DNA from: Candidatus Omnitrophota bacterium
GTDB taxonomy: Bacteria > Omnitrophota > Omnitrophia > Omnitrophales > Aquincolibacteriaceae
Length of the DNA: 64,000 nt
Direction: 5' to 3'
Assembly (NCBI GenBank): GCA_022711115.1
Contig: JAKLFP010000002.1
Location: 143,674 to 207,673 of the forward strand
In this document: piece by piece, positions 46,833-63,853 of the stretch
Position numbering within the stretch: position 1 is the first letter of the stretch
How the letters are laid out: each line of letters opens with the position of its first letter
Notes under the pieces: generated by a model
What the model was told of the DNA's origin: nothing
Database searches by the model: none
What the model saw: the letters and a program-made list of their open reading frames with translations, nothing else
Translations under genes and position numbers: made by a program

Positions 46833-49800
46833 TTACGCGGCTTTCGACGTCGCCTGGATCGTCAGGATATCGGACCAGAGCTTCGCCAAACCCGCTAATT
46901 TCATCTCATCGATGCCAAAGTACGCCTTCACCCGCTTCAGAACATCATCGCCAAGCTGACGGTTCAAAAGCGCCATGGCATCCATATTCTTGATCGATAC
47001 GTTCAGTTGTGCCGCCTTCATGGCCAAGAGACCTCTCAGACCCGCGTAGGCCTTGTTCCCTTTTTGGCTGTCAAACACCGTTCCGCTGAATTCCTTGTCT
47101 AGCATCTCCGGCATATCTTCGATCAAAAGAACCAGATGCTCTCCTCGATCCATCTCGGCAGTCAAGGCAGGATCCATCTTCCGAAGGTCACGGAAAACCT
47201 CACCCTCCGCCGTGCGGATCGCTTGGGCCGCTTGAAGCGTATTCGCAAAATTAATCGTCATACGGTTATCGATCAGCGAGCCTCGATAATCCGTCGTCTG
47301 CTGGATATTATCCCTGATATCCGCTTGGATTGCCAACTGCTCCGCTACCGAAACCTTATCGTTAACAACCAAAATACGGACAACCGCTCTGGGGTTCATT
47401 CCCAGCTGAAGTTTCAACTCATTCAGCCTCGCGGCATCGGGCAGTTCTTTCATCACGATCAGCACACCGCCAATATCGGTCGAAACAGAAATCACGGCAT
47501 TCGTCATGATCGACTTAGCAACCTCGGATTCGAGGAACTTGGTCCAATCCATTTCTCCGGTCTTGAGTGCGACCAATGTCGTCAAGGCAGTCACAACTTG
47601 TTCCACAGTCGGATTGCCAAAGGCAGGCACTACGATTTTCGCGACCACATCATTCAGAGTATCTGTTCCATACTTAAAAGGTTCACTTTCCAATTTTCTC
47701 AGGATTTCCGGTGCTAGCAGCCTCCTGACCTGATCAACCAATTCCTGGCGGACTTCGATCTCCAACTTGATCACCGGCAATTGAGGCCCCGCCTCCCTCA
47801 CCTCGGAGCGGGTCAATCGCCCCTTCAGTGCTAATTTAACAGCTTCGATAGTTCCAGGTCGCTGGCTCCGATCAGTTTCAGCTTTTAGGATACTATCTTC
47901 AAGAGCATTCATGCTGTTCGCAAAAAAGTCATTCCTCGTTTCCAACACGGCCATATGATGCAAGCTAGGGTATGATCCAGTCCTGATGGCAAAAGCGTCC
48001 AACCAATGCATGACATCTTCCTCACGAGTTTGGATCGTGTCAGCCGCAGCTATCGTTATTTCCCATGCGCTGACCACGCGATCAATGGTCTGCATTATGT
48101 TCGCAGATAATTTCCCCCTCACCTCGGAGCGGGCAGGACTGCGATATACAGTTTCTCCGCGCAATGTAATTTGCGCCGGTAACATTAAACCATCCGTTGT
48201 TTCTATCCGTAATTTGGAAAATTTTCCGCCAATATCTCGAAAGGGCACATGCCTGGCTTCGTCAAGATCAGTGACGAGTATACGCATCATTTTCCCTACC
48301 GATTTTCCTTTAGCATCAAGGGCCGTGACAAACATAACACTCCCTGCATTTAAACCATTTTGACGGATCGGATTAAGATTCAGTCGAACAAGATCTTTGG
48401 CATTGATCGGCTGATCTAGCCGCAGGGTGTATTCTCTTGCCTGCGTTGTTTTTCCATCCACGTGTCCAGTTATGATTTGGGTACCTAAGCCTATCACATG
48501 GAATTGACTCATTCTTACTTCGGAACGAGGCCCTCCTAAAAATCCTTCTGCCCCTCCTCCTCCGATGTCCGGCGTAAAGTCATATCGGCCTTGTTTCACA
48601 TTGATGGTTGCCGATTCAGGGCCTGTTAACGTAAATGAAAAGGTTCTCGCTTCGTGCACATTGATCCCCTGAACATTATTGATGTCAATCGTGTAATTCT
48701 GAGGCGTGTTCAAAACTCCAGTCAAATTAGCACGCCAGGTCTTCCCTTCGGCATCTTGAATCTCATAGCCGACAACGGGAGCGTTTGTACTCCCTAAGGA
48801 AAAGGTGATCCCATTGGGAAACTGCGTCGGGAGATCCACATTATTGGTGTAATTTGCAAAAACACCCCCAAAACTCGCCGTATTTTCTCCCACATAATTG
48901 AATGTGAATGTGTTCGTCTCCGTAACCTTGAGCTCCCCAACCACATTCGTACTGCTCACAAAATTACCCAACCCAACAAATGGCAATGGCGTGACGCTGG
49001 CAGTTTGATTCCCAGGCGGAACATCGGGAGCAAAATTCCAAGAACCCATGACTAGATCAGCGTTCTTAGGACCTTGCCCTTCAAAAACATAGACCATCTG
49101 ACGGACCTGCGTCGGATCAATCTTACGAGCCATTTGGTCCAAAGGCAGCGTGTATTTTTGCGAGCTGGGAGTAATACCGCTTAAAATGCCTGTCCAAGTA
49201 TTCGTATTGGCATCTTTAACCTCGACCTTCAAATGATCCAGATTGGGACTCGCAATCGAAAAGGTTAATCCGTTCGGATAAAGACTTTGAAAGTTAATAT
49301 TATTGGTATATTCAAACACCGTTCCCGCATAACCGGTAGCATTCGTGCTCGAGTAACTCATGCTCATGGTGTTTGTCCCGGTAATATTATTGAAAACCAC
49401 TTCACCTCCTGGCCCTGTGAAATTCATCGGATTAACTTGCGGCAGCGGTGTAATGGCAGCACCCTGATTGCCAGGAGGAATCGAGGGAACATAATCCCAA
49501 GATCCTAAAACAAGATCCGCGCTCTTGGGACCTTGCCCTTCAAAAACATAGACCACCTGCCTCACCTGAGTCGGATCAATCTTTTGTTGAAGGAGGTTGA
49601 GCGACAGCGTGTATTTTTGTAAACCCGGAGTGATGCCGCCAAGCATCCCTCTCCAAGTGTTGGTATTCGCATCTTTGACCTCCACTTTCAAGTGATTCAG
49701 ATTGGGGCTTGCGATCGAAAACGTCAGACCATTCGGATAAAGACTTTGAAAGTTAATGTTATTGGTATATTCAAACACAGTGCCCGCATATCCCGTAAAA

Positions 49801-52800
49801 TTCGTACTCGTATAACTCGCAGTCAGCGTATTGGTGCCCGTGATATCATTGAAAACCGATTCACCAGTCGGACCTGTAAAGGTCGTCGGATTCACTTGCG
49901 GCAGCGGCGTGATGGCAGTACTTTGATTTCCGGGCGGAATGATAGGAACGTAATCATAAGGACCAAGCTCAATCACATAGGTCTTCTGCCCTTCTCCTGC
50001 GGCGGTGAACACAATCTCCCGGATCTTGGTCGTATCGATCCCGTATATCTGATTCAAATTCACCGTGTATTTCTGAGGCGTCTCGGTAATGTCGCTAACA
50101 TTGCCACGCCAAGATCTTCCGTTCTCATCCTTGATCTCGAGAACCAACGAAGTGGCATCCAAACTGCCTACCGAAAAGGTAAGTCCATTCGGGAATTGAC
50201 TCGCAAAATCCACGTTATTGGTGAAACTTGAAAAAACACCCCCGAAGCTCGCGACATTGATACCGCTGTAACTCAAACGAAGAGCATTGGTCCTGATCAC
50301 CGTAACATCGGCAACCGTGTTCGTGCTGTCGGTGTAACTTCCCGTATTATTATTGACAGGCAACGGCGTGATCAAAGCACCCTGATTGGCTGCGGGCAAA
50401 ATCGGAGGAACATAGCTGTAGGGTCCAAGTTCGATCACATAGGTCTTCTGCCCTTCCCCTACCGCAGTGAAAACGATCTCTCGGATCTTAGTCGTATCGA
50501 TCCCGAATATTTGATTCAAGTTGACCGTATGCTTTTGAGCAGTCGCGCTAATACCGCTGATATTCCCACGCCAAACGTTCCCGTTCTCATCCTTGATCTC
50601 AATGCCCAAAATCGTCGCATTCGTGCTGGAAACTGAAAAGGTAAGACCATTGGGAAATGCGCTTGCAAAATCGACGCTATTAGTAAAACTTGAGTAAACC
50701 CCTCCATAACTATCCGCACTCGGTCCCGCATAATTCAGCATCACAACATTGGTGTTTTGCGCTGTGGCCAGAACCGATGCGTTCGTGCTATTAAAAGTAC
50801 CGAAGTTATTAAACGGCAAAGGGGTGATGTTGGCCGCTTGATTCCCAGGCGGAATATCGGGAATAAAATTCCAAGAGCCCATGACAAGATCGGCACTCTT
50901 CGGGCCTTGCCCTTCAAAAACATAGACCATCTGACGGACCTGCGTCGGATCAATCTTCCGAGCTATTTGGTCCAAAGGCAGCGTGTACTTTTGCTGATCC
51001 GGCGTGATGCTGCTAAGCATGCCAGTCCAGGTGTTGGTATTGGCATCCTTAACCTCGACTTTTAAATGATCCAGATTGGGACTGGCAATCGAAAAGGTCA
51101 GACCATTCGGGTAGAGATTCTGAAAGTTGATATTATTCGTGTATTCAAACACTGTCCCCGCATAACCGGTGGCATTCGTGCTCGCATAACTCATGCTCAG
51201 GGTATTGGTCCCAGTCACATTATTGGTAACTACCTCGCCTGTTGGTCCTGTAAAAGTGGTGGGATTGACCGTTGGAAGCGGTGTAATGTCCGCGGTTTGA
51301 TTGCCGGGAGGAATCGACGGAATATAGTTAAAATTTCCCCAATCCACATAGAGCGTTTTCTGTCCCTGACCTTCGATCACAAGCGTGATTTCCGTGATAT
51401 GCGTCTGATCAAGCGCTGGAGCATATTGCGTCATAAAACTGAGCGGAATATTAAAGCCTTTTCCTGAAGGCGTCAGATTGGATAGATATGCCGCAAAAAC
51501 ATTACCTCTCCCGTCCTTGAACTCAATCTTCACCCTTGAAAGATTGGGACTCGCTGCGAAGAGTCTCAAACCAGTCGGATAATTGGTCACCAAATTGATG
51601 GGGTTGTCTGCAAAATTGAATGCGGGACCCGCATAACTGGCAGTTCTGGCGCCGTTGACATTCACGGTCAAAAAGTTTTGCTCGTTTACCGTGTTCGTGA
51701 TCGTCGTACCGTCGTTGGAGTCAAAACTCCATAAATTCTGAACGGTCGGAAGCGGAGTCGCGGCTTTCTTCACGGCGCGGTAAACCTGCATGGGATTCAG
51801 CGAGAAATTTTGAATGAAATCAAGCGGCTGACCGGGTAAAACGAATTGATTGGTAACCAAAGTTCTCCACGGGCCGTTCACCTGCGCTGCGGCTTGAAGA
51901 TCAATGGCTCCAGGGCTGTAAGGCGCTTCCACGCGTACAGTTCCATTTTCACTAATAGACATCTGAGGCGGCATGAGCCCAGCCTCTGCGGCGTTTGTCA
52001 TTGTCACAGGCGCTTGGGATATTCCTACCACACTCATCAAACCAAACATAAGGGTCCGCAAAAGCGACGGCCTCATACTTCTGACAAACTGCTCTTGCGG
52101 CTGCGCCATCTCTTGACCCCTCATCTCCGAACGCATGCGGCTCCGAATAGCTTCATCAAGCGCGCGCAATGCGGGCTCATCTATTAGACCAAATTCAACT
52201 AATTTTTCCTCCACTTGCCTGCTTGCGTTCGCCAGTGCGAGGGCATTCCGCACGGCCCTCGTCGGATCAATTTTGAAAGCTACAACATCCGCCACTGTTT
52301 CGAGAGCCCAATCCGACTCGTCTCCCTGCACCCATTGCAAAAATTTCTCGATACCCGCATCAACCGCCCCCCTCACTTCGGATCGGGAGGCAACAGCGGT
52401 TTTGACCGCATCGACAAGTTGAACACCTGAAAAGGGCTTTGACAAAAATCCAACACTGGATTGTGCTACTGCTTTTCCTTCCACTGCGCTCAACCCTTCT
52501 GTCCCACCGCTCATCACAAGTGCCGCAATCGAATTGTTTTTAGCCCGGGCAGCTTCGACAATAACACTTTTTATAACCCCATCGCTTTTTTGAAAGGTAT
52601 CCTGACCATGCAGGATCCTGTCCGTGACCAGTACGTCAAAATCGTTTTCACTGATGGCTTGACGAGCGCCGTCAACCGTATCTGCGAATATCACGATCGC
52701 CCCTTCGCTCTCAAGTATTGCTTTTACTACTTCAAGAATCATGGGCTCATCATCAACAGCAAGAATCCGTTTTCCCGCAAGATTGATATCCGTAGGCAGA

Positions 52801-55800
52801 ACCGCCCTCACCTCGGAGCGGGTGGATTCGTCATATCCCTCAAGACGGATGTGGAGAGGCGATTGCCATTGCATCGTGGGGGTACTTGAACCAGTCCAGG
52901 AATTATATTGGGAAATTTTGTTGATATGCCCCTTGGGGTCTATCTCAAGCAGATAAAGCTGGTCCCCTAGCCGCTGGGGCGCTGTGTCCCTGAAACGTGC
53001 CAATTTAACAGAGAACTTTCCGCCTTCCCAGGAAATCCGACCTACGATCAGCATACCGCGCCAACCGAAATGCAATATACCGCCAAGCGGCTTGGACAGA
53101 ACCAAATCCTGACCCCAAAGACCTCGTAATAGCGTAAACCATGGCCTTGTAATCATCCTGAAACCGAAATCGACCCCACGAGAAATCGGCGCTAACAGAC
53201 GAAAGCCAGAAACACTTGTTAATGAACGAAGCAATTTGTTATCAGCCTCTGGATCTCTTCCATTCCCTACAAGCATCGGCGATAGCGGACGTCCTGTGGC
53301 ATCGAGATTGTCTGTCGCTTTCAAAAAGGCTCTCTGCAGACGCTGATAAATTTCATAACTTGGCATGGCACGTCCATAAGCCAACCACACCAGAAAAGTC
53401 AAAAAGATAAAATCATGCCGCTTGAGATAAATGACCTGGTTGTTCGCGGTAACCAAAAATGCCCGGCTTGATTCGCTCAAACGTCCGGCAATGCTCTGAA
53501 TCGTCTGTCTGGGAACGACGCTTTCATCATTCGCAAGCGCGTCTTTTTCCAGTTGTTGGATAAACGGCCTCCAATTTTCCTGATCCGTTGCCAGCATTTC
53601 GATTGCCGTGTCGATATTAGACCTCACCTCGGAACGGGCGGATTCGTCGCGTTTCATTCGTTCTTGTCTGGCTATGAACCACTTCCCAAAATAGTAGAGG
53701 CTGGTGCCCGCTAAAATTGCCGCCGGAACCACCATAGCCCCACGAATGATCCTGCCGAGTGAAGCAAAATTTATGACCGCACGATCCGATAGTGAAGCCT
53801 TGCCTTGCGGAGGTCTGACATTCACAACATCACGAATGAATGCCGTTGCGGCAGGATATCCGGGCTTACTGAACGGAAAAGTCGTCAGCCCTTTTAATAC
53901 AAAATCAATTTGGCCGCGTGTATTTCTTTGATGCTCATCCCATGCCATCACAAGGATCATGGCCCGCATGACTGTGAATTCCGATTCGGGGTGCACGGTC
54001 ACGCGGGTTGCGCCGCCGGTCCGTACCAGCCGCGTCCCACTGATCATTCCAATCCGTGTCGGAATGCCCCCGGCTCCGACCACTTCGGCTCTTTCCAAAT
54101 CGCTTTGATTGATAATAAAATCCCGGGAAATGAGACTTCCGAAGATTCGCGCATTCCAGAGACTGATGAGCCACAAGGCCCTCTGGTCCATCTCCGAAAA
54201 ATTTCTCACGGCCGGGTATTTAGCCAGAAATTCCGATTTTTTCTGAGCCCAGAGATTGTTGATATGCCCATTGACTGTCTGGACACGTTCTACCGGTGTC
54301 TTTTCCTCAAAATAGGTCCAGGCATGAAAGCGCTGATACTTTCGAGCGTCATCGATCCACTGATTCACTGACGGATAGGCCTTCCCAAGCCGGTATTCCT
54401 GAAATTGAGGAAAACCTTGCGCCTTGAGCGCGGCAGCACCTGCCGACTGCACAGGTCCTTGTGTTCTGGGAGCCTCCCCTGCTTCCACGGTTAAAGCACT
54501 TGCCAAAAGACCCAAACTGGCGGCAAAAAAAGTACGTCGCGTCACGGGCTGAAGTATTTCACGTTCTGACACTCTCAGTTCGGATCGCAAATTTTCTCTC
54601 GTCTCTCGAGCGCTTTCAATCAACGTCCCAAGTCTTTGGAACTCACTCGGCATGTTCAACGAAACGCCTGGCTGGGCCCGCAATCTTTCCGCAGCGGTTA
54701 TCATGGCTGCTAATTGCCCGTCTGCCTCTGCATCAACTGTTCCGCTTTGGACACGATCCTGTAATGCCCAAAATTGGCGTTCCAATTTTTTCACATCATC
54801 CGGCGTCGCCCTCAATTCGGCACGGGCCGCCCCAGAAGAAGAAAAGCCTAAACGACGTTCAAAGAAAGCGCGAGCTGCCCCTGCATAGTCGCGAAACTCC
54901 GGTCTACCGCTTGCCGGTTGATACGGAATTTCGGAAACTCGAAGTTCGTTTCGTCTTGTCGAATCCGCATGGGCAACCACAAGACTTGCGCCCAAGGCCA
55001 TCGCATCATATAAATGCGTCACATGAAACGCCTGCATTTCCTGACCCGGCTTAAAAAGCTGAGGAAAACTGACGACGAGACCGGAAACTGCCTGACCCTT
55101 TTGATCAACCGCCCTTGATTCCGCACGGAGTTCGATCGCTTTTATTCTGCCTGTTGCTTTCAGTTTATCGATCAGTGTGTTAATATCGGCAATGTCAAGC
55201 GTCCGCAGTTCCGAGCGGCCGGTAGATGTTCCTATGAAAGGGCGAAAACCGTTAACCCTCTCCCCAAGCGCCCAGCGAAACTGTTTGACAATGAACGCCG
55301 GAACCGCCGCTTGATACAGATGGATCATGTTTAACATTTCACCAAGAAAATATCGCAGTCTCTTGCCCCGTAATTCCGAGCGGCCGGTCGTTGCGCCAGT
55401 CTTTTCAATCTTCATTTCTCTCAGAGAACTGTCATTAGCATCATTCACAACTATCGTTTCACGCCCACTCCTGATAAACATTTCTTGAACATTAGCGGGC
55501 AAATCCTGCATCGTCAGACTAGATGCCGGTAAGTCCATCTTGGTTACTGGCGCGTTCGGCGTCGTGCCCCCCGCAACATTCACAGCCATCTTTGTGCCAG
55601 CCGTCGTATTCGTAGAGCTGAGCCGTGCAAGCGCCGGAGAATTCGTCGAAAAGATGAAAACACCACCATCTCCTTTATTTAAATAATATCCGGACCGAGC
55701 CTCCCAATTCATCAGATTATGTGTCTCTTCCGTTCTTACACCATTTATGGCAACCTCAAACGTTGTCGCCATCCGTCCATTCGGTAGTTGGAACAAATTC

Positions 55801-57983
55801 GGTGACATCGTGCCTGCATTCCCTTGCGCTCGCGCCACGTTGAGTGACAACGCCAAACCCATCAACGCTAACCCTATCTTCTGCCACCAATTCGATCGCA
55901 GCTCAGAACGACCTGCTAATGCCGGAGCCGGAGTTTTAGCCGCTGTCTCGACGAGCGCCAATGATGGTACTGCAATGGATGTTGCTCTGGAAGCCGGCGC
56001 AGTCGCATTCACAATCGTCGCTTTTTCTCCCATGACCGCAGATTGACTTGTTGCGGTCGCGGTACGAATCATGGCGGTCGTGCCTTGCTGAACGGCTATA
56101 TCCCATGTCTTGGTACTATCATTAAATACAAGCGTTCGAGTTCCCGTTTTACCATCTACCACGTACGTCATCGACCCTCCGCGCGTGGTCATGATCGGTA
56201 CTGCGCCTTTATCCGCCATATATCGGAAATTCTGATCCATAGTTGCGGTCGTTGTGATATCAGCCGCTGCGTCCAAGGCCGCGCTGACCACGAGTCGAAG
56301 CGTTTTAGAGCCGTCCTTGCCCATCGGATCTCCAGTCATCGTGACAGCATTTTCAATGGTCGCAATGTCAAAACGGGTCTTGGTGCGCTGTAACATGGTA
56401 TCGCGGTAAAGCTTCTCATCACTTTTTTCGCTGAGACGCGGCGTGACGATCCCGTAGCTGATGTCATGATCGCGGAAGATCTCGCTCAAACCGTCCGTGT
56501 GATAACCCCCGGTAATCAGAACCGCTTTGCCGATATTTTCTTCTGAAAGTTTTTTTTGGATTTGCACAAAAAAGGCATCTTCACGTTTCCTCGCGAGATC
56601 ATAGAAATCAATGCCGCTTGTGAAAAGTTCGGACATGCGTTTGGAAAAATCGGGCGGCATGACTTTCTGTTTCATAAGCGATTCGTCATTTTTGGAGACG
56701 GCCACCGCCTCCGTCAAACGCCCGACCATGGACTCGATGGTGAGGATCTTTTGTTTGTCCTGCACTTTGCGCGATTCCGTGCGGTTGAGTTCCAGGTGCA
56801 GCAGTTTGCGGAGGAGTTCGCCATCCCGATAAAGTTCGAGAAGATTCTTCTGCGCGGGCTCCTTGGCCAAGGTATCAAGCATTTTAGCGAAAAGGAATTC
56901 GATCTCTTCAAAAAGAGCTTTCGGATCCAGTTCATTTTTGAGGACCACATAACCGGCATAAAGACTGAAATTCGGATAATCGCTGAACTTGAATCCTCTG
57001 GGTCCGGCTTCCGCCGCCAGTTGTTCCAGAACCCATCGGGGCAATATTTCTTTCGCATCCTTACCCGTACCGGCCCTGCCCATACTGATATTGCCTTCCT
57101 GAAAATTTTCGATGGCCCGGACAAGTGCCTCCGAAGTTCTTTTTTCGCGAAGAAACTTCACGAGGGAATCCCGTTCGGCCAGCGCCTTGTTCCGCTCCAC
57201 GTCTTTTTCCATTGTCTGAATAACAAGAAGACGCGTGATTTGCGGCCAACCGACCTGGGCGAACAGGCTTTCCAGGTCCACGTTCAGAACCTTCTTCGCT
57301 TGTTTGACAAGCGATTTTACATAGGGCAAAAATTCGCGCCGCCCCATCTCAAAGCTTTTCCAATCCGCGATAAGCCCGCGTGTATCCGGTGTAAACGTTT
57401 TGGACGCAACTTGCTCCAGCCTCACGTCGAAAACTCGAAAGAATTTTTCCACATCCGTTTCGGCCCCAAAGACTTTCTTCAAGGCGTTGTAATTTTGTTT
57501 ATAGAGGGAAGCATTTTCGATACCGATCGCCTCCACTTCCGGCGGTGCCTCCAGCAAATAAAGTTCGGCACCCGTCAATTCGCCCTGTTTTGCCAGATTA
57601 TCGGAAAGCTTCAGATTGCGTTCCTTGTCCGGGAAAAGACGGAGATAATCCGCATTCAGTTTTTCAGAAGCGCCTTCCACGAACACGGTTTTGATCGCGT
57701 ATTTTTTGTTCAGGTATTCCAGGAGCTGCTTGATCTTGATTTGCGCCTGATAATTGGCGTGGGCATTCTGAATGTGAAGCACAAATTTCGGATCTTGTTT
57801 GACTGGCGCCTCATAAATTTCATCGATGCTTGCAAGGTCCGCAGGAATATCAAGGCTCAGAAAATTAGGGATTTCCCGAGGGTTGGCTATTTCGATGCGA
57901 GCGCCCGGATCTGCCCATGTGCACTGCGTGGTCAAAAAACAAACTACTGTTATTATCGCGACCACTTTTAAATACTTTTTCAT
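46833..57983 (-). CDS. Giant modular protein (3716 aa) of unknown function. It has an N-terminal signal peptide and an embedded CheY-like receiver domain. About 7 tandem 150-aa beta-sandwich repeats are present. At least 13 RSE[LV]R junction motifs occur, and internal Sec/Tat-like hydrophobic segments follow some of them
   Basis: An uninterrupted 11.15-kb frame. ATG at 57983 is preceded by a GGGGG Shine-Dalgarno. The signal peptide is MKKYLKVVAIITVVCFLTTQCTWA. The receiver domain is RILAVDDEPMILEVVKAIL...VLVTDRILHG...LSKPF. See findings for the repeats and motif. Confidence 0.8.
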   Translation of the reverse strand: MKKYLKVVAIITVVCFLTTQCTWADPGARIEIANPREIPNFLSLDIPADLASIDEIYEAPVKQDPKFVLHIQNAHANYQAQIKIKQLLEYLNKKYAIKTVFVEGASEKLNADYLRLFPDKERNLKLSDNLAKQGELTGAELYLLEAPPEVEAIGIENASLYKQNYNALKKVFGAETDVEKFFRVFDVRLEQVASKTFTPDTRGLIADWKSFEMGRREFLPYVKSLVKQAKKVLNVDLESLFAQVGWPQITRLLVIQTMEKDVERNKALAERDSLVKFLREKRTSEALVRAIENFQEGNISMGRAGTGKDAKEILPRWVLEQLAAEAGPRGFKFSDYPNFSLYAGYVVLKNELDPKALFEEIEFLFAKMLDTLAKEPAQKNLLELYRDGELLRKLLHLELNRTESRKVQDKQKILTIESMVGRLTEAVAVSKNDESLMKQKVMPPDFSKRMSELFTSGIDFYDLARKREDAFFVQIQKKLSEENIGKAVLITGGYHTDGLSEIFRDHDISYGIVTPRLSEKSDEKLYRDTMLQRTKTRFDIATIENAVTMTGDPMGKDGSKTLRLVVSAALDAAADITTTATMDQNFRYMADKGAVPIMTTRGGSMTYVVDGKTGTRTLVFNDSTKTWDIAVQQGTTAMIRTATATSQSAVMGEKATIVNATAPASRATSIAVPSLALVETAAKTPAPALAGRSELRSNWWQKIGLALMGLALSLNVARAQGNAGTMSPNLFQLPNGRMATTFEVAINGVRTEETHNLMNWEARSGYYLNKGDGGVFIFSTNSPALARLSSTNTTAGTKMAVNVAGGTTPNAPVTKMDLPASSLTMQDLPANVQEMFIRSGRETIVVNDANDSSLREMKIEKTGATTGRSELRGKRLRYFLGEMLNMIHLYQAAVPAFIVKQFRWALGERVNGFRPFIGTSTGRSELRTLDIADINTLIDKLKATGRIKAIELRAESRAVDQKGQAVSGLVVSFPQLFKPGQEMQAFHVTHLYDAMALGASLVVAHADSTRRNELRVSEIPYQPASGRPEFRDYAGAARAFFERRLGFSSSGAARAELRATPDDVKKLERQFWALQDRVQSGTVDAEADGQLAAMITAAERLRAQPGVSLNMPSEFQRLGTLIESARETRENLRSELRVSEREILQPVTRRTFFAASLGLLASALTVEAGEAPRTQGPVQSAGAAALKAQGFPQFQEYRLGKAYPSVNQWIDDARKYQRFHAWTYFEEKTPVERVQTVNGHINNLWAQKKSEFLAKYPAVRNFSEMDQRALWLISLWNARIFGSLISRDFIINQSDLERAEVVGAGGIPTRIGMISGTRLVRTGGATRVTVHPESEFTVMRAMILVMAWDEHQRNTRGQIDFVLKGLTTFPFSKPGYPAATAFIRDVVNVRPPQGKASLSDRAVINFASLGRIIRGAMVVPAAILAGTSLYYFGKWFIARQERMKRDESARSEVRSNIDTAIEMLATDQENWRPFIQQLEKDALANDESVVPRQTIQSIAGRLSESSRAFLVTANNQVIYLKRHDFIFLTFLVWLAYGRAMPSYEIYQRLQRAFLKATDNLDATGRPLSPMLVGNGRDPEADNKLLRSLTSVSGFRLLAPISRGVDFGFRMITRPWFTLLRGLWGQDLVLSKPLGGILHFGWRGMLIVGRISWEGGKFSVKLARFRDTAPQRLGDQLYLLEIDPKGHINKISQYNSWTGSSTPTMQWQSPLHIRLEGYDESTRSEVRAVLPTDINLAGKRILAVDDEPMILEVVKAILESEGAIVIFADTVDGARQAISENDFDVLVTDRILHGQDTFQKSDGVIKSVIVEAARAKNNSIAALVMSGGTEGLSAVEGKAVAQSSVGFLSKPFSGVQLVDAVKTAVASRSEVRGAVDAGIEKFLQWVQGDESDWALETVADVVAFKIDPTRAVRNALALANASRQVEEKLVEFGLIDEPALRALDEAIRSRMRSEMRGQEMAQPQEQFVRSMRPSLLRTLMFGLMSVVGISQAPVTMTNAAEAGLMPPQMSISENGTVRVEAPYSPGAIDLQAAAQVNGPWRTLVTNQFVLPGQPLDFIQNFSLNPMQVYRAVKKAATPLPTVQNLWSFDSNDGTTITNTVNEQNFLTVNVNGARTASYAGPAFNFADNPINLVTNYPTGLRLFAASPNLSRVKIEFKDGRGNVFAAYLSNLTPSGKGFNIPLSFMTQYAPALDQTHITEITLVIEGQGQKTLYVDWGNFNYIPSIPPGNQTADITPLPTVNPTTFTGPTGEVVTNNVTGTNTLSMSYASTNATGYAGTVFEYTNNINFQNLYPNGLTFSIASPNLDHLKVEVKDANTNTWTGMLSSITPDQQKYTLPLDQIARKIDPTQVRQMVYVFEGQGPKSADLVMGSWNFIPDIPPGNQAANITPLPFNNFGTFNSTNASVLATAQNTNVVMLNYAGPSADSYGGVYSSFTNSVDFASAFPNGLTFSVSSTNATILGIEIKDENGNVWRGNISGISATAQKHTVNLNQIFGIDTTKIREIVFTAVGEGQKTYVIELGPYSYVPPILPAANQGALITPLPVNNNTGSYTDSTNTVADVTVIRTNALRLSYSGINVASFGGVFSSFTNNVDFASQFPNGLTFSVGSLDATSLVLEIKDENGRSWRGNVSDITETPQKYTVNLNQIYGIDTTKIREIVFTAAGEGQKTYVIELGPYDYVPIIPPGNQSTAITPLPQVNPTTFTGPTGESVFNDITGTNTLTASYTSTNFTGYAGTVFEYTNNINFQSLYPNGLTFSIASPNLNHLKVEVKDANTNTWRGMLGGITPGLQKYTLSLNLLQQKIDPTQVRQVVYVFEGQGPKSADLVLGSWDYVPSIPPGNQGAAITPLPQVNPMNFTGPGGEVVFNNITGTNTMSMSYSSTNATGYAGTVFEYTNNINFQSLYPNGLTFSIASPNLDHLKVEVKDANTNTWTGILSGITPSSQKYTLPLDQMARKIDPTQVRQMVYVFEGQGPKNADLVMGSWNFAPDVPPGNQTASVTPLPFVGLGNFVSSTNVVGELKVTETNTFTFNYVGENTASFGGVFANYTNNVDLPTQFPNGITFSLGSTNAPVVGYEIQDAEGKTWRANLTGVLNTPQNYTIDINNVQGINVHEARTFSFTLTGPESATINVKQGRYDFTPDIGGGGAEGFLGGPRSEVRMSQFHVIGLGTQIITGHVDGKTTQAREYTLRLDQPINAKDLVRLNLNPIRQNGLNAGSVMFVTALDAKGKSVGKMMRILVTDLDEARHVPFRDIGGKFSKLRIETTDGLMLPAQITLRGETVYRSPARSEVRGKLSANIMQTIDRVVSAWEITIAAADTIQTREEDVMHWLDAFAIRTGSYPSLHHMAVLETRNDFFANSMNALEDSILKAETDRSQRPGTIEAVKLALKGRLTRSEVREAGPQLPVIKLEIEVRQELVDQVRRLLAPEILRKLESEPFKYGTDTLNDVVAKIVVPAFGNPTVEQVVTALTTLVALKTGEMDWTKFLESEVAKSIMTNAVISVSTDIGGVLIVMKELPDAARLNELKLQLGMNPRAVVRILVVNDKVSVAEQLAIQADIRDNIQQTTDYRGSLIDNRMTINFANTLQAAQAIRTAEGEVFRDLRKMDPALTAEMDRGEHLVLLIEDMPEMLDKEFSGTVFDSQKGNKAYAGLRGLLAMKAAQLNVSIKNMDAMALLNRQLGDDVLKRVKAYFGIDEMKLAGLAKLWSDILTIQATSKAA
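48540..51950. repeat. About 7 tandem coding repeats of about 456 bp (152 aa) inside the giant gene, in two alternating sequence subtypes
   Basis: Units begin ...IPPGNQ.A.ITPLP and end ...(F/Y)(I/V)P. Subtype 1 carries TFTGPTGE...KVEVKDANTNTW; subtype 2 carries IKDENG..WRGN. Several units are at least 85-90% identical at protein level. The antisense frames repeat as well (MIQIGACDRKRQTIRIK... at 49692 and MIQIGTGNRKGQTIRVE... at 51066). Confidence 0.8.
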
Positions 57984-58178
57984 TACACCCCCCTTTGCGG
58001 TGTCTTTGAGAAACTCTTTTTAAGACTATATTAAAACTATTTAAAGAGTAACACCTTTTTGACAATTTTCAAGGGACAATGATTAACATTCTTCCTAATA
58101 CAACATCTATCAAAATAAAATATTTAAGGTCTATATTCATTCTAGATAATGACTCTAAATTGTTACAGATCCTGGATT

Positions 58179-58910
58179 TCAAGTTTTTTCAACAAAACGG
58201 ACAGCCAGACCTAATTGTTCCTTTCGAACTTCCTTGCGGCATATCTCCCCTGAAATTTGATATTCTTCCGGAAAGTTTGCGCTCGGAAATATATGGATCT
58301 CAACCTTAAGGCCCTCGATAGGATTCAACGCATCAATCCTATGAGAAACCCCAAGGTCAAGATATTCCCCGAAAAGCCCCCCCTCACTGATATTTGTCGC
58401 AATGGCGGTGGTTTGGATCATTTCTCCGCTTGCGGTAAATATCTTTAATTCCAGCGGAACCGCAACGTGCATGCGGTGGCTCCGCCGCTGTTCTAGCTGA
58501 TAGCCAAGCGACTCCTGGGGGGTTTTAACACCCTTGGCCATAATCTTCTTGTCGGGATCCTTAACGAAAAGAAAGGGCCCAAAAGATTCGGCCACCTGCT
58601 TCTCATCCGAGCAGATATCCACTTTCCCCGAGGGAAAGTTATCCTCGATACAGTGGGCCATTTCTGGCGTCACCCCGTAAAGCACGCTATGCTTGGGACG
58701 GATGCAAACCGTCAAAAGACGTCGCATCCCTATCGCATCCAGAGGACCCGACTCTTGGAAGTTTAGGATAATCTGCTGCAAGCCGTAGCGCCGGATGTTT
58801 TTCTGAATCTTCCAGGCTACCTCCTGCACCGATTCAAAGGTCGGCATGCCCTTGAGATCAAAAACCGAAACCCCGCCGATTTCTCGCGTTGAATAATGGA
58901 ATTTAGTCAT
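58179..58910 (-). CDS. STAS (anti-sigma-antagonist-like) - PilZ fusion protein; putative c-di-GMP receptor. ATG at 58910; the track start at 58997 is GTG
   Basis: N-terminal STAS-like fold (MTKFHYSTREIGGVSVFDLKG...). C-terminal PilZ motifs QRRSHRMHV (RxxxR) and NISEGGL (D/NxSxGG). Confidence 0.6.
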   Translation of the reverse strand: MTKFHYSTREIGGVSVFDLKGMPTFESVQEVAWKIQKNIRRYGLQQIILNFQESGPLDAIGMRRLLTVCIRPKHSVLYGVTPEMAHCIEDNFPSGKVDICSDEKQVAESFGPFLFVKDPDKKIMAKGVKTPQESLGYQLEQRRSHRMHVAVPLELKIFTASGEMIQTTAIATNISEGGLFGEYLDLGVSHRIDALNPIEGLKVEIHIFPSANFPEEYQISGEICRKEVRKEQLGLAVRFVEKT

Positions 58911-59341
58911 AACGCATCTTCCTCTTTTTGAACCGTTCGACCCTCCAAAGAATTCGGTGGATTCTGGGATAGATGTACCCTGAAAGAATATCTCCACGCT
59001 GGATGACGTAGGCCAATTGAGGACCCCCTTTCCCGTTCATTTTCATACTGCGAAAATCTTGAAGATCATGTGTCATTTTCATCACTCCTCTTTTTCAAAT
59101 TGTCCATAATATCATTTAACAACTTTTACTATGTTCTAACAAAAACATAACTCAGTAAAATACTTTTGTCAATATGTTATATATATAAAATATTTAATTA
59201 TATATTTTATTAATATTTATAAATATATATATCAAAAACAAGCAAATACATAACAAAAATGAGCCAAATTGACTCACTCTAAAAAACTTAAATCACTACC
59301 TTGGAAAGTCCTTGCCGGAGGCAAGAAGATTTTTAGAAGAT

Positions 59342-60694
59342 TTATTTAGGAGGCATTTGGAGCTTTTTCAGACGCTCCGAAAGGATTTTTTCAAAACCAA
59401 CTTCAACGGGACGGTAATAGCTGTTTTTTTTGCGGATGTAAATCTGATCCAGCTTCTGACCAGGATGGTCGTGCGGGTAAATATAACCAACGCCATGGCC
59501 GAGCGCCTTGGCACCGTGATAGGCAGAGCTTCGTAAATGCTGCGGCACCTGCTCGGATTTTTGATTCTGGACATCCTCAGTCGCCAGTTCAATAGCCCGA
59601 TAACTTGCATTGCTCTTCGGGGCAAGGGACAAATAACTCACGACTTGCGACAGGATAATTCTTGCTTCCGGCATCCCAACAAATTCGATCGCGGTGAAAC
59701 CGCTTGCGGCAAGCATTAGCGCCTGCGGATCCGCATTCCCGATATCTTCACTCGCAAAGATCATCATCCGCCGCATGATAAACCTTGGATCTTCTCCGGC
59801 GTAAAGCATCTTGGCCAGCCAGTAAATGGCGGCATCAACATCCGAACCGCGCATACTTTTGATGAACGCGCTGATGGTGTCGTAATGGAAATCTTCGTCC
59901 CAGTCATAATGCACGATCTTTTTTTGGCAGGACTCTTCCCCAACCGCGGGCGTAAAATGGATCACGTTTTTTTCATCAGGCGGCGTTGTCAAAACGCCGA
60001 TCTCCAGCGCATTCAACGCCCGCCGGGCATCCCCGGAAGATTGTTTTGCGATATGGCTCAATGCCGCAGGATCGATTTCGACTTTCAAATTTCCGAATCC
60101 GCGCTCTTTGTCCCCCACCGCGCGTTTCAGGATCTGAACCAGGTGAGATTCTTCATGAGGCTTGAGCTCACAGACGAGCGACCTTGAAAGAAGCGGCCCC
60201 CGGATCGCAAACGAGGGGTTCTGCGTGGTAGCACCGATCAGGATGATCACACCCGTTTCGACATCCGGCATAAGAATATCCTGCTGGGCTTTATTGAACC
60301 GATGGATTTCATCGATAAAGAGAACTGTTTTTTTGTGAGCATGCCTCAGCAGGCGCCGCGCATCAGCCTGAATCTTCCGCATCTCGGCCACATTGCTCAA
60401 AACCGCATTAATCGAAACGTAATGCGCAGCGGTCATCCGTGCAATCACAAGCGCGACGGTGGTTTTCCCGGTCCCTGGAGGACCATACAGAATAAGGGAA
60501 CTCAAGCGATCCGATTCGAGCGTGCGCCGGAGAAGCTTTCCTTTACCAAGAAGATGCTCCTGGCCCACAATCTCATCCAGGGAAACCGGCCGCATACGAA
60601 CTGCCAGTGGCGCATCTGGCGGAAGCTGGAGAACATCATCCACTTCGGATGGCTGAAACAACTCTCCGGAGGACATAGGATTTTTATTTGACAT
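59342..60694 (-). CDS. rarA: Replication-associated recombination protein A (AAA+ ATPase, MgsA/RarA)
   Basis: LRPVSLDEIVGQEHLLG..., Walker A GPPGTGKTT, Walker B VLFIDEIHRFNKAQQD, and the MgsA C-terminal domain. Confidence 0.9.
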   Translation of the reverse strand: MSNKNPMSSGELFQPSEVDDVLQLPPDAPLAVRMRPVSLDEIVGQEHLLGKGKLLRRTLESDRLSSLILYGPPGTGKTTVALVIARMTAAHYVSINAVLSNVAEMRKIQADARRLLRHAHKKTVLFIDEIHRFNKAQQDILMPDVETGVIILIGATTQNPSFAIRGPLLSRSLVCELKPHEESHLVQILKRAVGDKERGFGNLKVEIDPAALSHIAKQSSGDARRALNALEIGVLTTPPDEKNVIHFTPAVGEESCQKKIVHYDWDEDFHYDTISAFIKSMRGSDVDAAIYWLAKMLYAGEDPRFIMRRMMIFASEDIGNADPQALMLAASGFTAIEFVGMPEARIILSQVVSYLSLAPKSNASYRAIELATEDVQNQKSEQVPQHLRSSAYHGAKALGHGVGYIYPHDHPGQKLDQIYIRKKNSYYRPVEVGFEKILSERLKKLQMPPK

Positions 60695-62878: not shown

Positions 62879-63853
62879 TCATGAAAATTGTTTCAAGAAA
62901 CGCAAGTCGTTTTCAAAAAAATGCCGTATATCCGTGATCCCGTGACGGAGCATGGCAATGCGTTCCACGCCGAGCCCGAATGCAAACCCGCGCACCACGC
63001 TCTTATCATATTTTACTTCGTCAAAAACATTCGGGTCTACGCTGCCCGCGCCCAAAATCTCAAGCCAGCCTTTTCCCCACTGGATGTCCACCTCGACGCT
63101 AGGTTCGGTAAACGGAAAAAAGTGGGGCCGGAAACGTATTTTTGTTTCAGAACCGAAAAGCGCACGCAAAAAAACATGGAGAACTCCTTTCAAATCGCTG
63201 AATGTGACCGCATCATCCACCATCAAGCCTTCGATCTGATGGAACATGAAGGAATGGCTCGCATCCACCGTGTCCGGCCGGTAAACACGCCCCGGAGCAA
63301 TGATCTTTAAAGGCGGCTTGCGATTCTGCATCACGCGAATCTGGACGGTCGAGGTCTGAGAACGCAAAAGCTGTCCGTGCGTGGTATAAAAAGTATCAAA
63401 GGCATCGCGCGACGGATGATCCAGAGGGATGTTCAAGGCCGTGAAATTATGAAATTCCGTTTCGATCTCGGGACCTTCGACGATCTCGAAACCCATACGA
63501 TTAAAAATTGTCGAGATTTCTTGGATGGTTTGCTGCAGGAGATGAATGCTGCCGCTTGACGGTCGAATACCGGGAAGCGAACCATCAAAAGTTTCTTTTC
63601 CCGAAACTTGCTGAGGCGCCTCTTGTTTCGCTGTTTCCACCGAGGCTTCGAGCCACTGTTTCAAACGGTTCAACTCGGCACCCACGGATTTTTTTTCTTC
63701 CGGGGCCACCGTGCCCAGCTGTTTAAATAGTTCGGTCAGCTTCCCTTTTTTTCCAAGATAGGCAATCCGAAAAGCTTCCGCCATTTCAGCAGAGTCGATT
63801 CGTGCCAGATCCTCTCGGGCCTCGTTTTCCAGATGATTTATCTGATCCTTCAT
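62879..63853 (-). CDS. pheS: Phenylalanine--tRNA ligase alpha subunit
   Basis: Class II motifs, including FFPFTEPSVEVDI and GAGSVDPNVF. 324 aa, upstream of pheT. Confidence 0.95.
   Translation of the reverse strand: MKDQINHLENEAREDLARIDSAEMAEAFRIAYLGKKGKLTELFKQLGTVAPEEKKSVGAELNRLKQWLEASVETAKQEAPQQVSGKETFDGSLPGIRPSSGSIHLLQQTIQEISTIFNRMGFEIVEGPEIETEFHNFTALNIPLDHPSRDAFDTFYTTHGQLLRSQTSTVQIRVMQNRKPPLKIIAPGRVYRPDTVDASHSFMFHQIEGLMVDDAVTFSDLKGVLHVFLRALFGSETKIRFRPHFFPFTEPSVEVDIQWGKGWLEILGAGSVDPNVFDEVKYDKSVVRGFAFGLGVERIAMLRHGITDIRHFFENDLRFLKQFS

What the first reader, a model, noticed from the sequence alone, without database searches (positions are those of the whole stretch)
58179..59341. A STAS-PilZ fusion protein and a 250-bp extremely AT-rich spacer immediately upstream of the giant gene
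The gene upstream of the giant ORF fuses an anti-sigma-antagonist-like STAS domain to a PilZ domain (RxxxR ... NxSxGG), i.e. a putative c-di-GMP receptor. Two membrane GGDEF cyclases lie 37 kb away in the same window, and the giant protein carries a REC domain. This suggests second-messenger control of the island. Region 59086-59341 is more than 80% AT and contains a near-perfect palindrome (ataaaatatttaattatatattttat). Its composition departs sharply from the 50% GC of the housekeeping genes around it. That fits a foreign-DNA boundary, or a regulatory region bound by nucleoid proteins.
Basis: partly seen in the sequence, partly recalled or inferred. Interest (0 to 1): 0.55.

Follow-up and report, generated by a model that had tools for sequence, protein, structure and literature searches.

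The report
Omnitrophota STAS-PilZ operon and its promoter
The gene is a real STAS-PilZ fusion and a likely c-di-GMP receptor, co-translated with an overlooked 57-residue protein, and the AT-rich DNA upstream is its conserved promoter region, not a foreign-DNA boundary or a dedicated switch for the giant gene.

Summary
On the minus strand, 58179-58910 encodes a 243-aa protein. Its N-terminal half folds like SpoIIAA/RsbS. Its C-terminal half is a PilZ domain whose RRxxR and NxSxGG motifs are invariant in 53 of 53 orthologues. The spacer is the most AT-rich 250 bp of the window, at 77% AT overall and 88% in the core.

The gene sits in a conserved Omnitrophota core block: thrS-infC-rpmI-rplT-pheS-pheT-rarA-[small ORF]-STAS-PilZ-DUF1844-LPG synthase. 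About 35 species-level genomes keep it without an adjacent giant gene. The giant gene is a lineage-specific insertion with its own conserved promoter.

The AT-rich spacer is present in 22 related lineages, including lineages without the giant gene. It holds an invariant ATTGACAAA -35 element, a -10 element 17 nt downstream, and helically phased TGCTAT repeats. The palindrome is not conserved.

It is conserved under purifying selection, and its stop codon overlaps the STAS-PilZ start. The STAS domain lacks the phosphorylatable serine.

My reading is that c-di-GMP, rather than phosphorylation, gates partner binding by the STAS domain, and that the small protein is the likely partner. The family appears restricted to Omnitrophota, and I found no description of it. 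This is a new variant of a known kind, of moderate interest.

The parts
59342..60694 (-). rarA/mgsA (AAA+ recombination factor). This is the upstream housekeeping neighbour and the last gene of the conserved thrS-infC-rpmI-rplT-pheS-pheT-rarA block.
   Evidence: Pfam MgsA_C scores 213.9 bits, with AAA_assoc_2 and RuvB_N also matched. The synteny is seen.
59256..59325 (-). Two terminator-like hairpins after rarA, at 59311-59325 and 59256-59280. The second is followed by a T-run.
   Evidence: Consensus scan. The TGGCTCA part of the second hairpin recurs in relatives. This is consensus-level evidence only.
59077..59341 (-). AT-rich intergenic spacer of 265 nt with GC 0.23. It holds the promoter and 5' UTR of the small-ORF/STAS-PilZ operon.
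   Evidence: It contains the lowest-GC 250 nt of the window. Homologous spacers of 172-450 nt (two longer: 622 and 1038 nt), mostly GC 0.20-0.36, occur in 22 lineages whose loci are GC 0.41-0.56.
59229..59255 (-). Degenerate copies (TGATAT, TGTTAT) of the upstream TGCTAT repeat. This is a candidate operator for an unknown transcription factor.
   Evidence: TGCTAT occurs in 15 of 22 loci against a null mean of 2.8 (z = 6.2). Copies sit at -42, -52 and -62 from the -35 start, a 10-nt phasing.
59185..59210 (.). It lies 13-38 nt upstream of the -35 hexamer.
   Evidence: It is not conserved in relatives and is probably a by-product of AT-rich sequence.
59167..59172 (-). -35 hexamer TTGACA, within an invariant ATTGACAAA.
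   Evidence: Promoter scan gives 10 of 12 matches. The element is invariant in all 22 aligned spacers.
59144..59149 (-). -10 hexamer TATGTT with a 17-nt spacer. The inferred transcription start is near 59137.
   Evidence: alignment consensus TATG.TT. The start site is inferred, not measured.
59085..59090 (-). Shine-Dalgarno sequence GAGGAG of the small ORF, 8 nt before the ATG.
   Evidence: AGGAG is conserved upstream of the ATG in 22 loci.
58903..59076 (-). Small ORF of 57 aa: MTHDL...GKGGP...LSGYxxPxxHRxLRRxERxKKRK. It is basic (13 K+R against 5 D+E). Its stop overlaps the STAS-PilZ ATG by 8 nt.
   Evidence: It is conserved in about 35 loci, with a 4- or 8-nt overlap in most. Pairwise codon-position differences are 0.29, 0.24 and 0.57. 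NCBI lists it as hypothetical protein PLO78_04400. It has no Pfam or PDB match.
58179..58910 (-). STAS-PilZ protein of 243 aa, cytoplasmic.
   Evidence: No hydrophobic segment was found.
58575..58910 (-). STAS domain (residues 1-112, beta-beta-alpha-beta-alpha-beta-alpha-beta-alpha). SpoIIAA Ser58 aligns to Ala59.
   Evidence: Foldseek matches SpoIIAA, RsbS and RsbV. HMM alignment to SpoIIAA. That column reads A17 P17 T6 D5 Q4 S2 E1 H1.
58188..58493 (-). PilZ domain (residues 140-241). RRSHR is encoded at 58473-58487 and NISEGG at 58377-58394.
   Evidence: Pfam 24.1 bits, above the cut-off. R142, R143, R146, N173, G177 and G178 are invariant in 53 of 53, and S175 in 48 of 53. The fold matches the PilZ domains of BcsA, MotI and VCA0042.
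57984..58178 (-). Spacer between STAS-PilZ and the giant gene (GC 0.29). It carries the giant gene's own promoter: -35 TTGAAA at 58067-58072 and an extended -10 TGTTACTCT at 58045-58053.
   Evidence: Alignment of 21 distinct spacers gives the consensus CTTGAAA..T.......A.GTGTTA..TTT, then TTTAAAAAG and AAGG. No terminator was predicted here in this window.
46833..57983 (-). Giant gene of 3716 aa. It is context, not part of the operon. It is a lineage-specific insertion between STAS-PilZ and DUF1844.

Best explanation
The region is a conserved, Omnitrophota-specific two-gene operon with its own promoter.

**Anatomy (shown)**
- The AT-rich spacer after rarA carries rarA's terminator hairpins, helically phased TGCTAT repeats, an AT-rich upstream tract, and a sigma-70-type promoter (TTGACA, 17 nt, TATGTT).
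- The transcript encodes first a 57-aa basic protein and then the 243-aa STAS-PilZ protein. The second cistron is translationally coupled to the first through an overlapping stop and start.

**Mechanism (inferred)**
- STAS-PilZ is a cytoplasmic c-di-GMP receptor.
- c-di-GMP binds the RRxxR arm at the inter-domain linker and the NxSxGG site on the PilZ barrel. This repositions the STAS domain.
- The STAS domain is the output, acting through protein-protein contact. It lacks the phosphorylatable serine, so c-di-GMP replaces phosphorylation as the switch.
- The most likely partner is the co-translated small basic protein. In other lineages the partner may be a paralogous STAS-PilZ encoded in the same slot.

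**Relation to the giant gene.** The operon is part of the core genome. The giant gene downstream is a later insertion with its own promoter. Any functional link to it would be secondary.
For: **Domains**
- PilZ scores above the Pfam cut-off.
- The AF2 model has pLDDT 86 and pTM 0.84.
- Fold matches are SpoIIAA, RsbS and RsbV for the N-terminal half, and the PilZ domains of BcsA, MotI and VCA0042 for the C-terminal half.
- The binding motifs are invariant in 53 orthologues. R136, R140 and G172 are invariant and N167 and S169 nearly so in 21 paralogues.
- The phospho-serine position is Ala or Pro in most members.

**Operon**
- The small ORF is conserved in about 35 loci, with a 4- or 8-nt stop/start overlap in most.
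- Its third codon positions vary twice as much as the first two.
- Its Shine-Dalgarno sequence is conserved.

**Promoter**
- The -35 element is invariant and the -10 element conserved in 22 lineages.
- TGCTAT is enriched (z = 6.2) and phased at 10 nt.

**Core-genome position**
- The order pheT-rarA-STAS-PilZ holds in nearly every locus with enough upstream flank.
- DUF1844 and LPG synthase follow directly in about 35 loci, and follow the giant gene in L012, L016, L019, L022 and this window.
- A tree of the STAS-PilZ proteins shows giant-gene adjacency in one clade plus two isolated cases.
- The giant gene has its own conserved promoter.

**c-di-GMP supply.** Two GGDEF proteins are encoded in the window.
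Against: - No binding or interaction data exist. c-di-GMP binding is inferred from motifs only.
- The small-protein partnership rests on translational coupling and co-occurrence alone. A minority of lineages have STAS-PilZ without a detectable small ORF or paralogue upstream, for example L003, L029, L036 and L047.
- AF2 gives only a low-confidence three-helix model for the small protein (pLDDT 58).
- No intrinsic terminator is predicted between STAS-PilZ and the giant gene in this window, so read-through co-transcription is possible.
- Large ORFs follow STAS-PilZ in two further distant lineages, L042 and L058. This is a little more than expected if the association were purely accidental.
Confidence: 0.6

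Rival explanations
1. STAS-PilZ is the dedicated c-di-GMP-responsive regulator of the giant gene or 'island', controlling its expression or the activity of its REC-containing product.
For: - The two genes are adjacent on the same strand in about 22 species-level genomes of one clade.
- Large ORFs also follow STAS-PilZ in distant L058 (homologous N-terminus) and L042 (unrelated).
- No terminator is predicted in the 195-nt spacer of this window.
- The giant protein carries a REC domain.
Against: - About 35 species-level genomes keep STAS-PilZ in the same core position with DUF1844 directly downstream and no giant gene.
- A sub-branch next to the window's own clade (L013, L024, L025, L026) lacks the giant gene but keeps the small ORF, STAS-PilZ and the AT-rich promoter.
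- The giant gene has its own conserved -35 and extended -10 elements.
- Several relatives have terminator hairpins in the spacer (L001, L020, L034; read from the alignment).
- In L047, L053 and L055 the giant-gene N-terminal homologue lies about 10 kb away, not adjacent.
Confidence: 0.15
2. The AT-rich spacer marks a horizontally acquired segment or is a xenogeneic-silencing target bound by nucleoid proteins.
For: It is the lowest-GC stretch of the window. A Y1/IS200-like transposase lies at the far end of the giant gene.
Against: - The spacer lies between two core genes, rarA and the small-ORF/STAS-PilZ pair, whose order is conserved across the phylum.
- It is equally AT-rich in relatives without the giant gene.
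- It contains a conserved promoter.
- The GC and GC3 of STAS-PilZ (0.49, 0.56) and of the giant gene (0.49, 0.52) match their neighbours.
- Several other longer intergenic regions in the window are also GC 0.29-0.39.
Confidence: 0.04
3. The small ORF is only a leader or coupling device (a uORF) that sets STAS-PilZ translation. It is not a functional partner protein, and the STAS domain's partner is encoded elsewhere.
For: The stop/start overlap is the most conserved feature. Some lineages lack the ORF. The AF2 model is of low confidence.
Against: - The amino-acid sequence is conserved over deep divergence, including the motifs GKGGP, LSGYxxPxxH and a basic tail.
- The codon-position pattern of 0.29, 0.24 and 0.57 indicates purifying selection on the peptide.
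- Where it is absent, a full paralogous STAS-PilZ often occupies the coupled upstream slot.
Confidence: 0.12
4. The PilZ domain is a non-binding adaptor, like type-IV-pilus PilZ, and the protein acts independently of c-di-GMP.
For: The Pfam score is only just above the cut-off (24.1 against 22.5). The profile and sequence searches tried against PDB sequences found no PilZ chain.
Against: Both binding motifs are intact and invariant in 53 of 53 orthologues. R136, R140 and G172 are invariant and N167 and S169 nearly so in the paralogues. From my own recollection, known non-binding PilZ proteins lack these motifs.
Confidence: 0.08

Closest known systems
Two-domain PilZ adaptors (YcgR, MotI/DgrA, PlzD/VCA0042)
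   Same: - It has a C-terminal canonical PilZ barrel with RxxxR on the inter-domain linker and (D/N)xSxxG on the barrel.
- Fold matches include 5vx6 and 2rde.
- The expected mechanism is the same: c-di-GMP at the domain junction changes how the N-terminal domain meets a partner.
- The spacing from R146 to N173 (27 positions) equals that from R118 to D145 in E. coli YcgR, as I recall it.
   Different: The N-terminal domain is a STAS fold, not a PilZN/YcgR_N or degenerate PilZ domain. The review of PilZ architectures I could read lists fusions with PilZN, PilZNR, HlyD, REC, GGDEF, EAL, HD-GYP, MCP and CheC, but not STAS.
Anti-sigma-factor antagonists and stressosome STAS proteins (SpoIIAA, RsbV, RsbS)
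   Same: The STAS fold matches (TM 0.7-0.78 on the target, rmsd 2.4-3.1 Å). The sequence aligns to SpoIIAA through the LNL...D-S-S-G-L region. N50 and R63 are invariant and D58 and G61 are largely conserved around the canonical interaction face.
   Different: - The phosphorylatable Ser58 is Ala here, and Ser or Thr occurs in only 8 of 53 orthologues.
- No SpoIIAB/RsbW-type kinase, PP2C phosphatase or sigma factor is encoded in the gene neighbourhoods examined.
- The domain is fused to PilZ.
- Pfam STAS is below the cut-off for this member.
c-di-GMP links to partner-switching systems (Streptomyces RsiG-sigma WhiG; Pseudomonas HsbA-HsbD). Recalled from memory, not tested.
   Same: The concept is shared: c-di-GMP signalling intersects with anti-sigma or anti-anti-sigma type protein switches.
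   Different: In those systems c-di-GMP binds an anti-sigma factor, or a STAS protein binds a cyclase. No PilZ domain is fused to STAS. There is no homology beyond the STAS fold.

Membership tests
PilZ domain (PF07238), canonical c-di-GMP-binding type | Match to the family HMM at or above the curated cut-off | tested here: met
   24.1 bits against a cut-off of 22.5, covering residues 140-241 and profile positions 1-87. Most orthologues carry precomputed PF07238.
PilZ domain (PF07238), canonical c-di-GMP-binding type | RxxxR motif at the N-terminal arm | tested here: met
   R142-R143-S-H-R146. R142, R143 and R146 are invariant in 53 of 53. The corresponding arginines are invariant in 21 paralogues.
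PilZ domain (PF07238), canonical c-di-GMP-binding type | (D/N)xSxxG motif on the barrel | tested here: met
   N173-I-S175-E-G-G178. N173, G177 and G178 are invariant in 53 of 53, and S175 in 48 of 53.
PilZ domain (PF07238), canonical c-di-GMP-binding type | Six-stranded beta-barrel fold resembling solved PilZ domains | tested here: met
   The AF2 model shows beta strands from 151 to 239. Foldseek matches BcsA PilZ (5ej1, 4p00), MotI (5vx6) and VCA0042 (2rde) at E of 2e-4 to 8e-4.
PilZ domain (PF07238), canonical c-di-GMP-binding type | Binds c-di-GMP | not testable with these tools
   This needs DRaCALA, ITC or a co-crystal.
STAS domain / anti-sigma-factor antagonist (PF01740, SpoIIAA/RsbV type) | Match to the family HMM at or above the curated cut-off | tested here: not met
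   This protein scores 14.2 bits against a cut-off of 22.6. The cut-off is met in some orthologues (precomputed PF01740) and in paralogues P0140, P0143 and P0180 at 23.2-26.5 bits.
STAS domain / anti-sigma-factor antagonist (PF01740, SpoIIAA/RsbV type) | STAS alpha/beta fold | tested here: met
   Best PDB matches are 1til_B SpoIIAA (TM 0.77, rmsd 2.8 Å over 115 columns), 6jhk RsbS, 4hyl, 1vc1 and 6m36 RsbV.
STAS domain / anti-sigma-factor antagonist (PF01740, SpoIIAA/RsbV type) | Conserved phosphorylatable Ser/Thr at the start of helix alpha-2 (SpoIIAA Ser58) | tested here: not met
   It aligns to Ala59. The family column reads A17 P17 T6 D5 Q4 S2 E1 H1.
STAS domain / anti-sigma-factor antagonist (PF01740, SpoIIAA/RsbV type) | Cognate anti-sigma kinase, PP2C phosphatase or sigma factor in the same gene cluster | tested here: not met
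   The neighbours are rarA, pheST, the small ORF, the giant gene or DUF1844, and LPG synthase. None has HATPase_c, SpoIIE or sigma domains. Only the neighbourhood was checked, not the whole genome.

The most novel reading that the evidence does not exclude
The small basic protein and STAS-PilZ form a new kind of partner switch. A second messenger (c-di-GMP, sensed by the fused PilZ) replaces serine phosphorylation as the input that makes a STAS domain bind or release its partner. The released 57-aa basic protein is the effector, for example a nucleic-acid- or ribosome-binding factor. That role would fit the operon's fixed place at the end of the thrS-infC-rpmI-rplT-pheST-rarA cluster. Lineages with two tandem STAS-PilZ paralogues would run a more elaborate version of the same switch.
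Probability: 0.25. Interest if true: 0.6.

Novelty: new variant of a known kind. Interest (0 to 1): 0.4.

Why it matters
Omnitrophota are uncultured, often ultra-small and possibly predatory or symbiotic bacteria, and their signalling is essentially unstudied. A phylum-wide, single-copy, core-genome c-di-GMP receptor with a STAS output and a dedicated micro-protein would be a tractable entry point. Two small proteins can be expressed in E. coli and tested for c-di-GMP binding and for interaction.

The result would also add a domain architecture (STAS-PilZ) to the catalogue of c-di-GMP effectors. It would give an example of a STAS switch that is not driven by phosphorylation.

For the scan itself, the result removes a tempting but wrong inference that this gene and the AT-rich tract belong to, or delimit, the giant-gene 'island'.

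Tried and rejected
- **Rfam.** An E-value-threshold search of 57700-59600 gave only a chance miRNA match at E = 0.93, so there is no riboswitch.
- **5' UTR folding.** The 71-nt 5' UTR folds at -6.5 kcal/mol with z = -0.78, so there is no significant structure.
- **Palindrome as operator.** Rejected. It is not conserved, relatives show no enrichment (Fisher P = 0.71), and the window itself gives P = 0.15 under a flexible definition.
- **Shared 13-nt AT motif.** TTAAATATTTTAT occurs in both the 59077-59341 and the 57984-58178 spacers (D3/I5). I judged it chance for AT-only sequence, and it is not conserved in the alignments.
- **PDB sequence searches.**
  - The family profile gave only sub-threshold SpoIIAA hits at E = 0.24-0.9, used only for residue alignment.
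  - The PilZ half alone gave nothing.
  - The small-protein profile gave nothing.
- **Pfam on 23 small-protein homologues.** Only weak Antitox_RHH hits in 3 members, best E = 0.005. I treat this as a lead, not a finding.
- **AF2 of the small protein.** pLDDT 58, so no fold search was attempted.
- **AFDB fold search.** The library was unavailable, so the occurrence of STAS-PilZ in other phyla could not be checked by structure.
- **Literature.** No paper in the held library mentions a STAS-PilZ fusion. The initial hits were the surname 'Stassinopoulos'.
Full report
**Layout**

All genes in this part of the window are on the minus strand:

| Feature | Coordinates | Note |
|---|---|---|
| pheS | 62879-63853 | |
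| pheT | 60745-62811 | |
| rarA/mgsA | 59342-60694 | Pfam MgsA_C 213.9 bits |
| AT-rich spacer | 59077-59341 | |
| Small ORF | 58903-59076 | |
| STAS-PilZ | 58179-58910 | |
| Second spacer | 57984-58178 | |
| Giant gene | 46833-57983 | 3716 aa |

The mechanical ORF for STAS-PilZ starts at a GTG at 58997. All homologues start at the ATG at 58910 (MTKF/MSKF). A 243-aa NCBI protein from a Candidatus Omnitrophota MAG is identical over its full length (P0001).

**The protein**

- *PilZ half.* Pfam PilZ matches residues 140-241 at 24.1 bits, above the 22.5 cut-off, starting at profile position 1. The two c-di-GMP-binding motifs are R142-R143-S-H-R146 and N173-I-S175-E-G177-G178. In an alignment of 53 orthologues (51-87% identity), R142, R143, R146, N173, G177 and G178 are invariant, and S175 is present in 48.
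- *STAS half.* Pfam STAS is sub-threshold at 14.2 bits against 22.6. An AlphaFold2 model built on the 53-sequence alignment is confident (pLDDT 86.3, pTM 0.84) and gives the pattern beta-beta-alpha-beta-alpha-beta-alpha-beta-alpha for residues 1-110.
- *Fold matches.* Foldseek against the PDB ranks SpoIIAA first (1til_B, TM 0.77 on the target, rmsd 2.8 Å). RsbS, other anti-sigma antagonists and RsbV follow. The C-terminal half matches the PilZ domains of BcsA, MotI and VCA0042.
- *Transitive support for STAS.* Several orthologues and paralogues pass the STAS cut-off themselves.

The fusion is therefore real.

A profile alignment to B. subtilis SpoIIAA places its phosphorylatable Ser58 opposite Ala59. 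That column is A, P, D, Q, E or H in 45 of 53 orthologues. No kinase, phosphatase or sigma factor is encoded nearby. The STAS domain is therefore not a classical phospho-switch. Neither this protein nor the small one has a hydrophobic segment.

**A missed gene**

Directly upstream lies a 57-codon ORF encoding MTHDLQDFRSMKMNGKGGPQLAYVIQRGDILSGYIYPRIHRILWRVERFKKRKMRYD. A GAGGAG Shine-Dalgarno sequence sits 8 nt before its ATG. Its stop overlaps the STAS-PilZ start codon by 8 nt.

- tblastn and frame inspection find it in about 35 related loci, including distant ones. The overlap is 4 or 8 nt in most, and nearly all keep their stop at the STAS-PilZ start.
- Pairwise differences per codon position are 0.29, 0.24 and 0.57. 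This is the signature of a translated, selected peptide.
- It has no Pfam, NCBIfam or PDB relative. Its AF2 model is of low confidence.
- In 16 loci a paralogous STAS-PilZ (about 22% identity, motifs intact) lies between rarA and the orthologue. It either replaces the small ORF in the coupled slot or precedes it.

**Synteny**

Contigs carrying homologues, together with 58 species-level loci from GTDB genomes, show an upstream order of thrS-infC-rpmI-rplT-pheS-pheT-rarA-STAS-PilZ. All titles that name a phylum name Omnitrophota, except one 1.7-kb contig binned as an archaeon. The pheT-rarA-STAS-PilZ part holds in nearly every locus with enough flank.

- *Downstream without a giant gene.* In about 35 loci DUF1844 and an LPG-synthase-like gene follow directly.
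- *Downstream with a giant gene.* In this window, and in L012, L016, L019 and L022, the same genes follow the giant gene instead. In this window aroQ, accB and accC come next, as they do directly after LPG synthase in L003. The giant gene, together here with a Y1/IS200-like transposase at 45936-46592, is thus an insertion into a core block.
- *Distribution on the tree.* On a neighbour-joining tree of the STAS-PilZ proteins, giant-gene adjacency marks one clade. A neighbouring branch lacks it (L013, L024, L025, L026). There are two isolated cases: L058 shares only the N-terminal ~530 aa, and L042 has an unrelated ORF.
- *Composition.* The GC and GC3 of the giant gene equal those of its neighbours.

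**The AT-rich spacer**

It contains the lowest-GC 250 nt of the window (0.208). It is 77% AT over 59086-59341 and 87.6% AT over 59140-59260.

- *Conservation.* Homologous spacers in 22 lineages are likewise AT-rich. Most are GC 0.20-0.36, in loci of GC 0.41-0.56. They include lineages without the giant gene.
- *Promoter.* Their alignment shows an invariant ATTGACAAA, a TATG.TT element 17 nt downstream, a conserved 5' UTR stretch and AGGAG. In the window these are 59167-59172 (-35) and 59144-59149 (-10), which the consensus scan found independently at 10 of 12 matches.
- *Upstream repeats.* TGCTAT occurs in 15 of 22 loci (null 2.8, z = 6.2), at -42, -52 and -62 from the -35 start. This helically phased array suggests a transcription-factor site. 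The copies in the window are degenerate.
It lies between the repeats and the -35 element. It is not conserved and not enriched in relatives.
- *RNA elements.* There is no Rfam family match and no significant 5' UTR structure.
- *After rarA.* Terminator-like hairpins follow rarA.

**The second spacer**

The 57984-58178 spacer carries its own conserved promoter-like block: CTTGAAA, N16, TGnTACnnT, then TTTAAAAAG and AAGG(A)GG. This block is present in 21 distinct spacers from loci with the giant gene. Some relatives also have terminator hairpins there. This window does not, so read-through is possible here.

**Breadth and literature**

- A profile search of 1.84 billion cluster representatives finds only 79 proteins at E of 1e-3 or better.
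- The paralogue profile finds 31.
- Every source name among the listed protein hits names Omnitrophota or Omnitrophica.
- No paper in the held library describes a STAS-PilZ fusion. The PilZ architecture review does not list one.
- A structure-based census (AFDB) was unavailable.

**Interpretation**

*Shown:*
- a STAS-PilZ fusion with intact binding motifs;
- a coupled, conserved micro-protein;
- a conserved promoter in the AT-rich spacer;
- a core-genome position;
- insertion of the giant gene with its own promoter.

*Inferred:*
- c-di-GMP binds at the linker and barrel, as in YcgR or MotI-type adaptors, and changes what the STAS face binds;
- the small basic protein (or a paralogous STAS-PilZ) is the partner;
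- the TGCTAT repeats are an operator.

*Not supported:*
- dedicated control of the giant gene;
- a foreign-DNA boundary;
- a functional palindrome.

**Verdict**

The eye-catching parts of the interpretation are wrong. The module is an undescribed, phylum-restricted variant of known signalling parts and is of moderate interest.

Noticed in passing
window 46833-57983 (-), giant protein residues 692-3392: The motif R-[SNAP]-E-[VLMF]-R (mostly RSEVR or RSELR) occurs 14 times, always between recognisable blocks. Several copies are followed within 5-30 residues by signal-peptide, TM or Tat-like stretches (after 692, 1133 and 1951) or by a domain start (1722, then REC at 1740-1861). Codons vary, so selection looks protein-level, although five copies read TCCGAGGTGAGG, which resembles a Shine-Dalgarno sequence. 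These may be processing sites or module delimiters of a polyprotein.
   Followed up: partly
window 45936-46592 (-): A Y1/IS200-like transposase (Pfam Y1_Tnp, 38.4 bits) lies directly after the giant gene. Its GC of 0.42 is lower than its neighbours. Homologues sit after the giant gene in L009 and upstream of STAS-PilZ in L020.
   Followed up: partly
L042:9743-19295 and L058:10941-20723: Two distant Omnitrophota lineages also have very large ORFs (at least 3184 and 3261 aa, both cut by the end of the fetched locus) in the slot right after STAS-PilZ. The L042 ORF shows no similarity to the window's giant protein. The L058 ORF shares only the N-terminal ~530 aa at 22% identity. The site may be a recurrent landing place for giant genes.
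   Followed up: partly
L047:19941-20723, L053:20177-20701, L055:19835-20695: Homologues of the giant protein's N-terminal domain (about 29-30% identity) lie about 10 kb downstream of STAS-PilZ in lineages where the two genes are not adjacent.
   Followed up: no
L005:9259-10014, and 15 further loci (L027, L028, L030, L032, L037, L040, L051, L053, L055-L061): A paralogous STAS-PilZ gene (about 22% identity, RxxxR and NLSEGG intact) sits between rarA and the orthologue. Some members keep a Ser at the SpoIIAA Ser58 position (IDSLG). In some loci it overlaps the orthologue's start, and in others the small ORF lies between the two.
   Followed up: partly
window 59229-59255 and the homologous spacers of L012, L013, L024, L025, L026: TGCTAT(A) repeats with 10-nt phasing lie upstream of the operon's -35 element. 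They are a candidate binding array for an unknown regulator.
   Followed up: partly
window 58014-58032 (approx.) and homologous spacers: A conserved TTTAAAAAG..TTAA block lies in the presumed 5' UTR of the giant gene, between its promoter and its ribosome-binding site. It is present in nearly all relatives with the giant gene. Its function is unknown.
   Followed up: no
window 19559-22386 (-): Two overlapping tandem GGDEF genes encode proteins of 460 and 487 aa. The second carries a GAF domain. Both have long hydrophobic N-terminal regions. Another GGDEF gene lies 10 kb downstream of STAS-PilZ in L003.
   Followed up: partly
L063 (JACQXV010000087.1, 1715 nt): A contig binned as 'Candidatus Woesearchaeota archaeon' carries the small ORF and the STAS-PilZ start at 73% identity to the window. 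This is most likely a mis-binned Omnitrophota contig.
   Followed up: no
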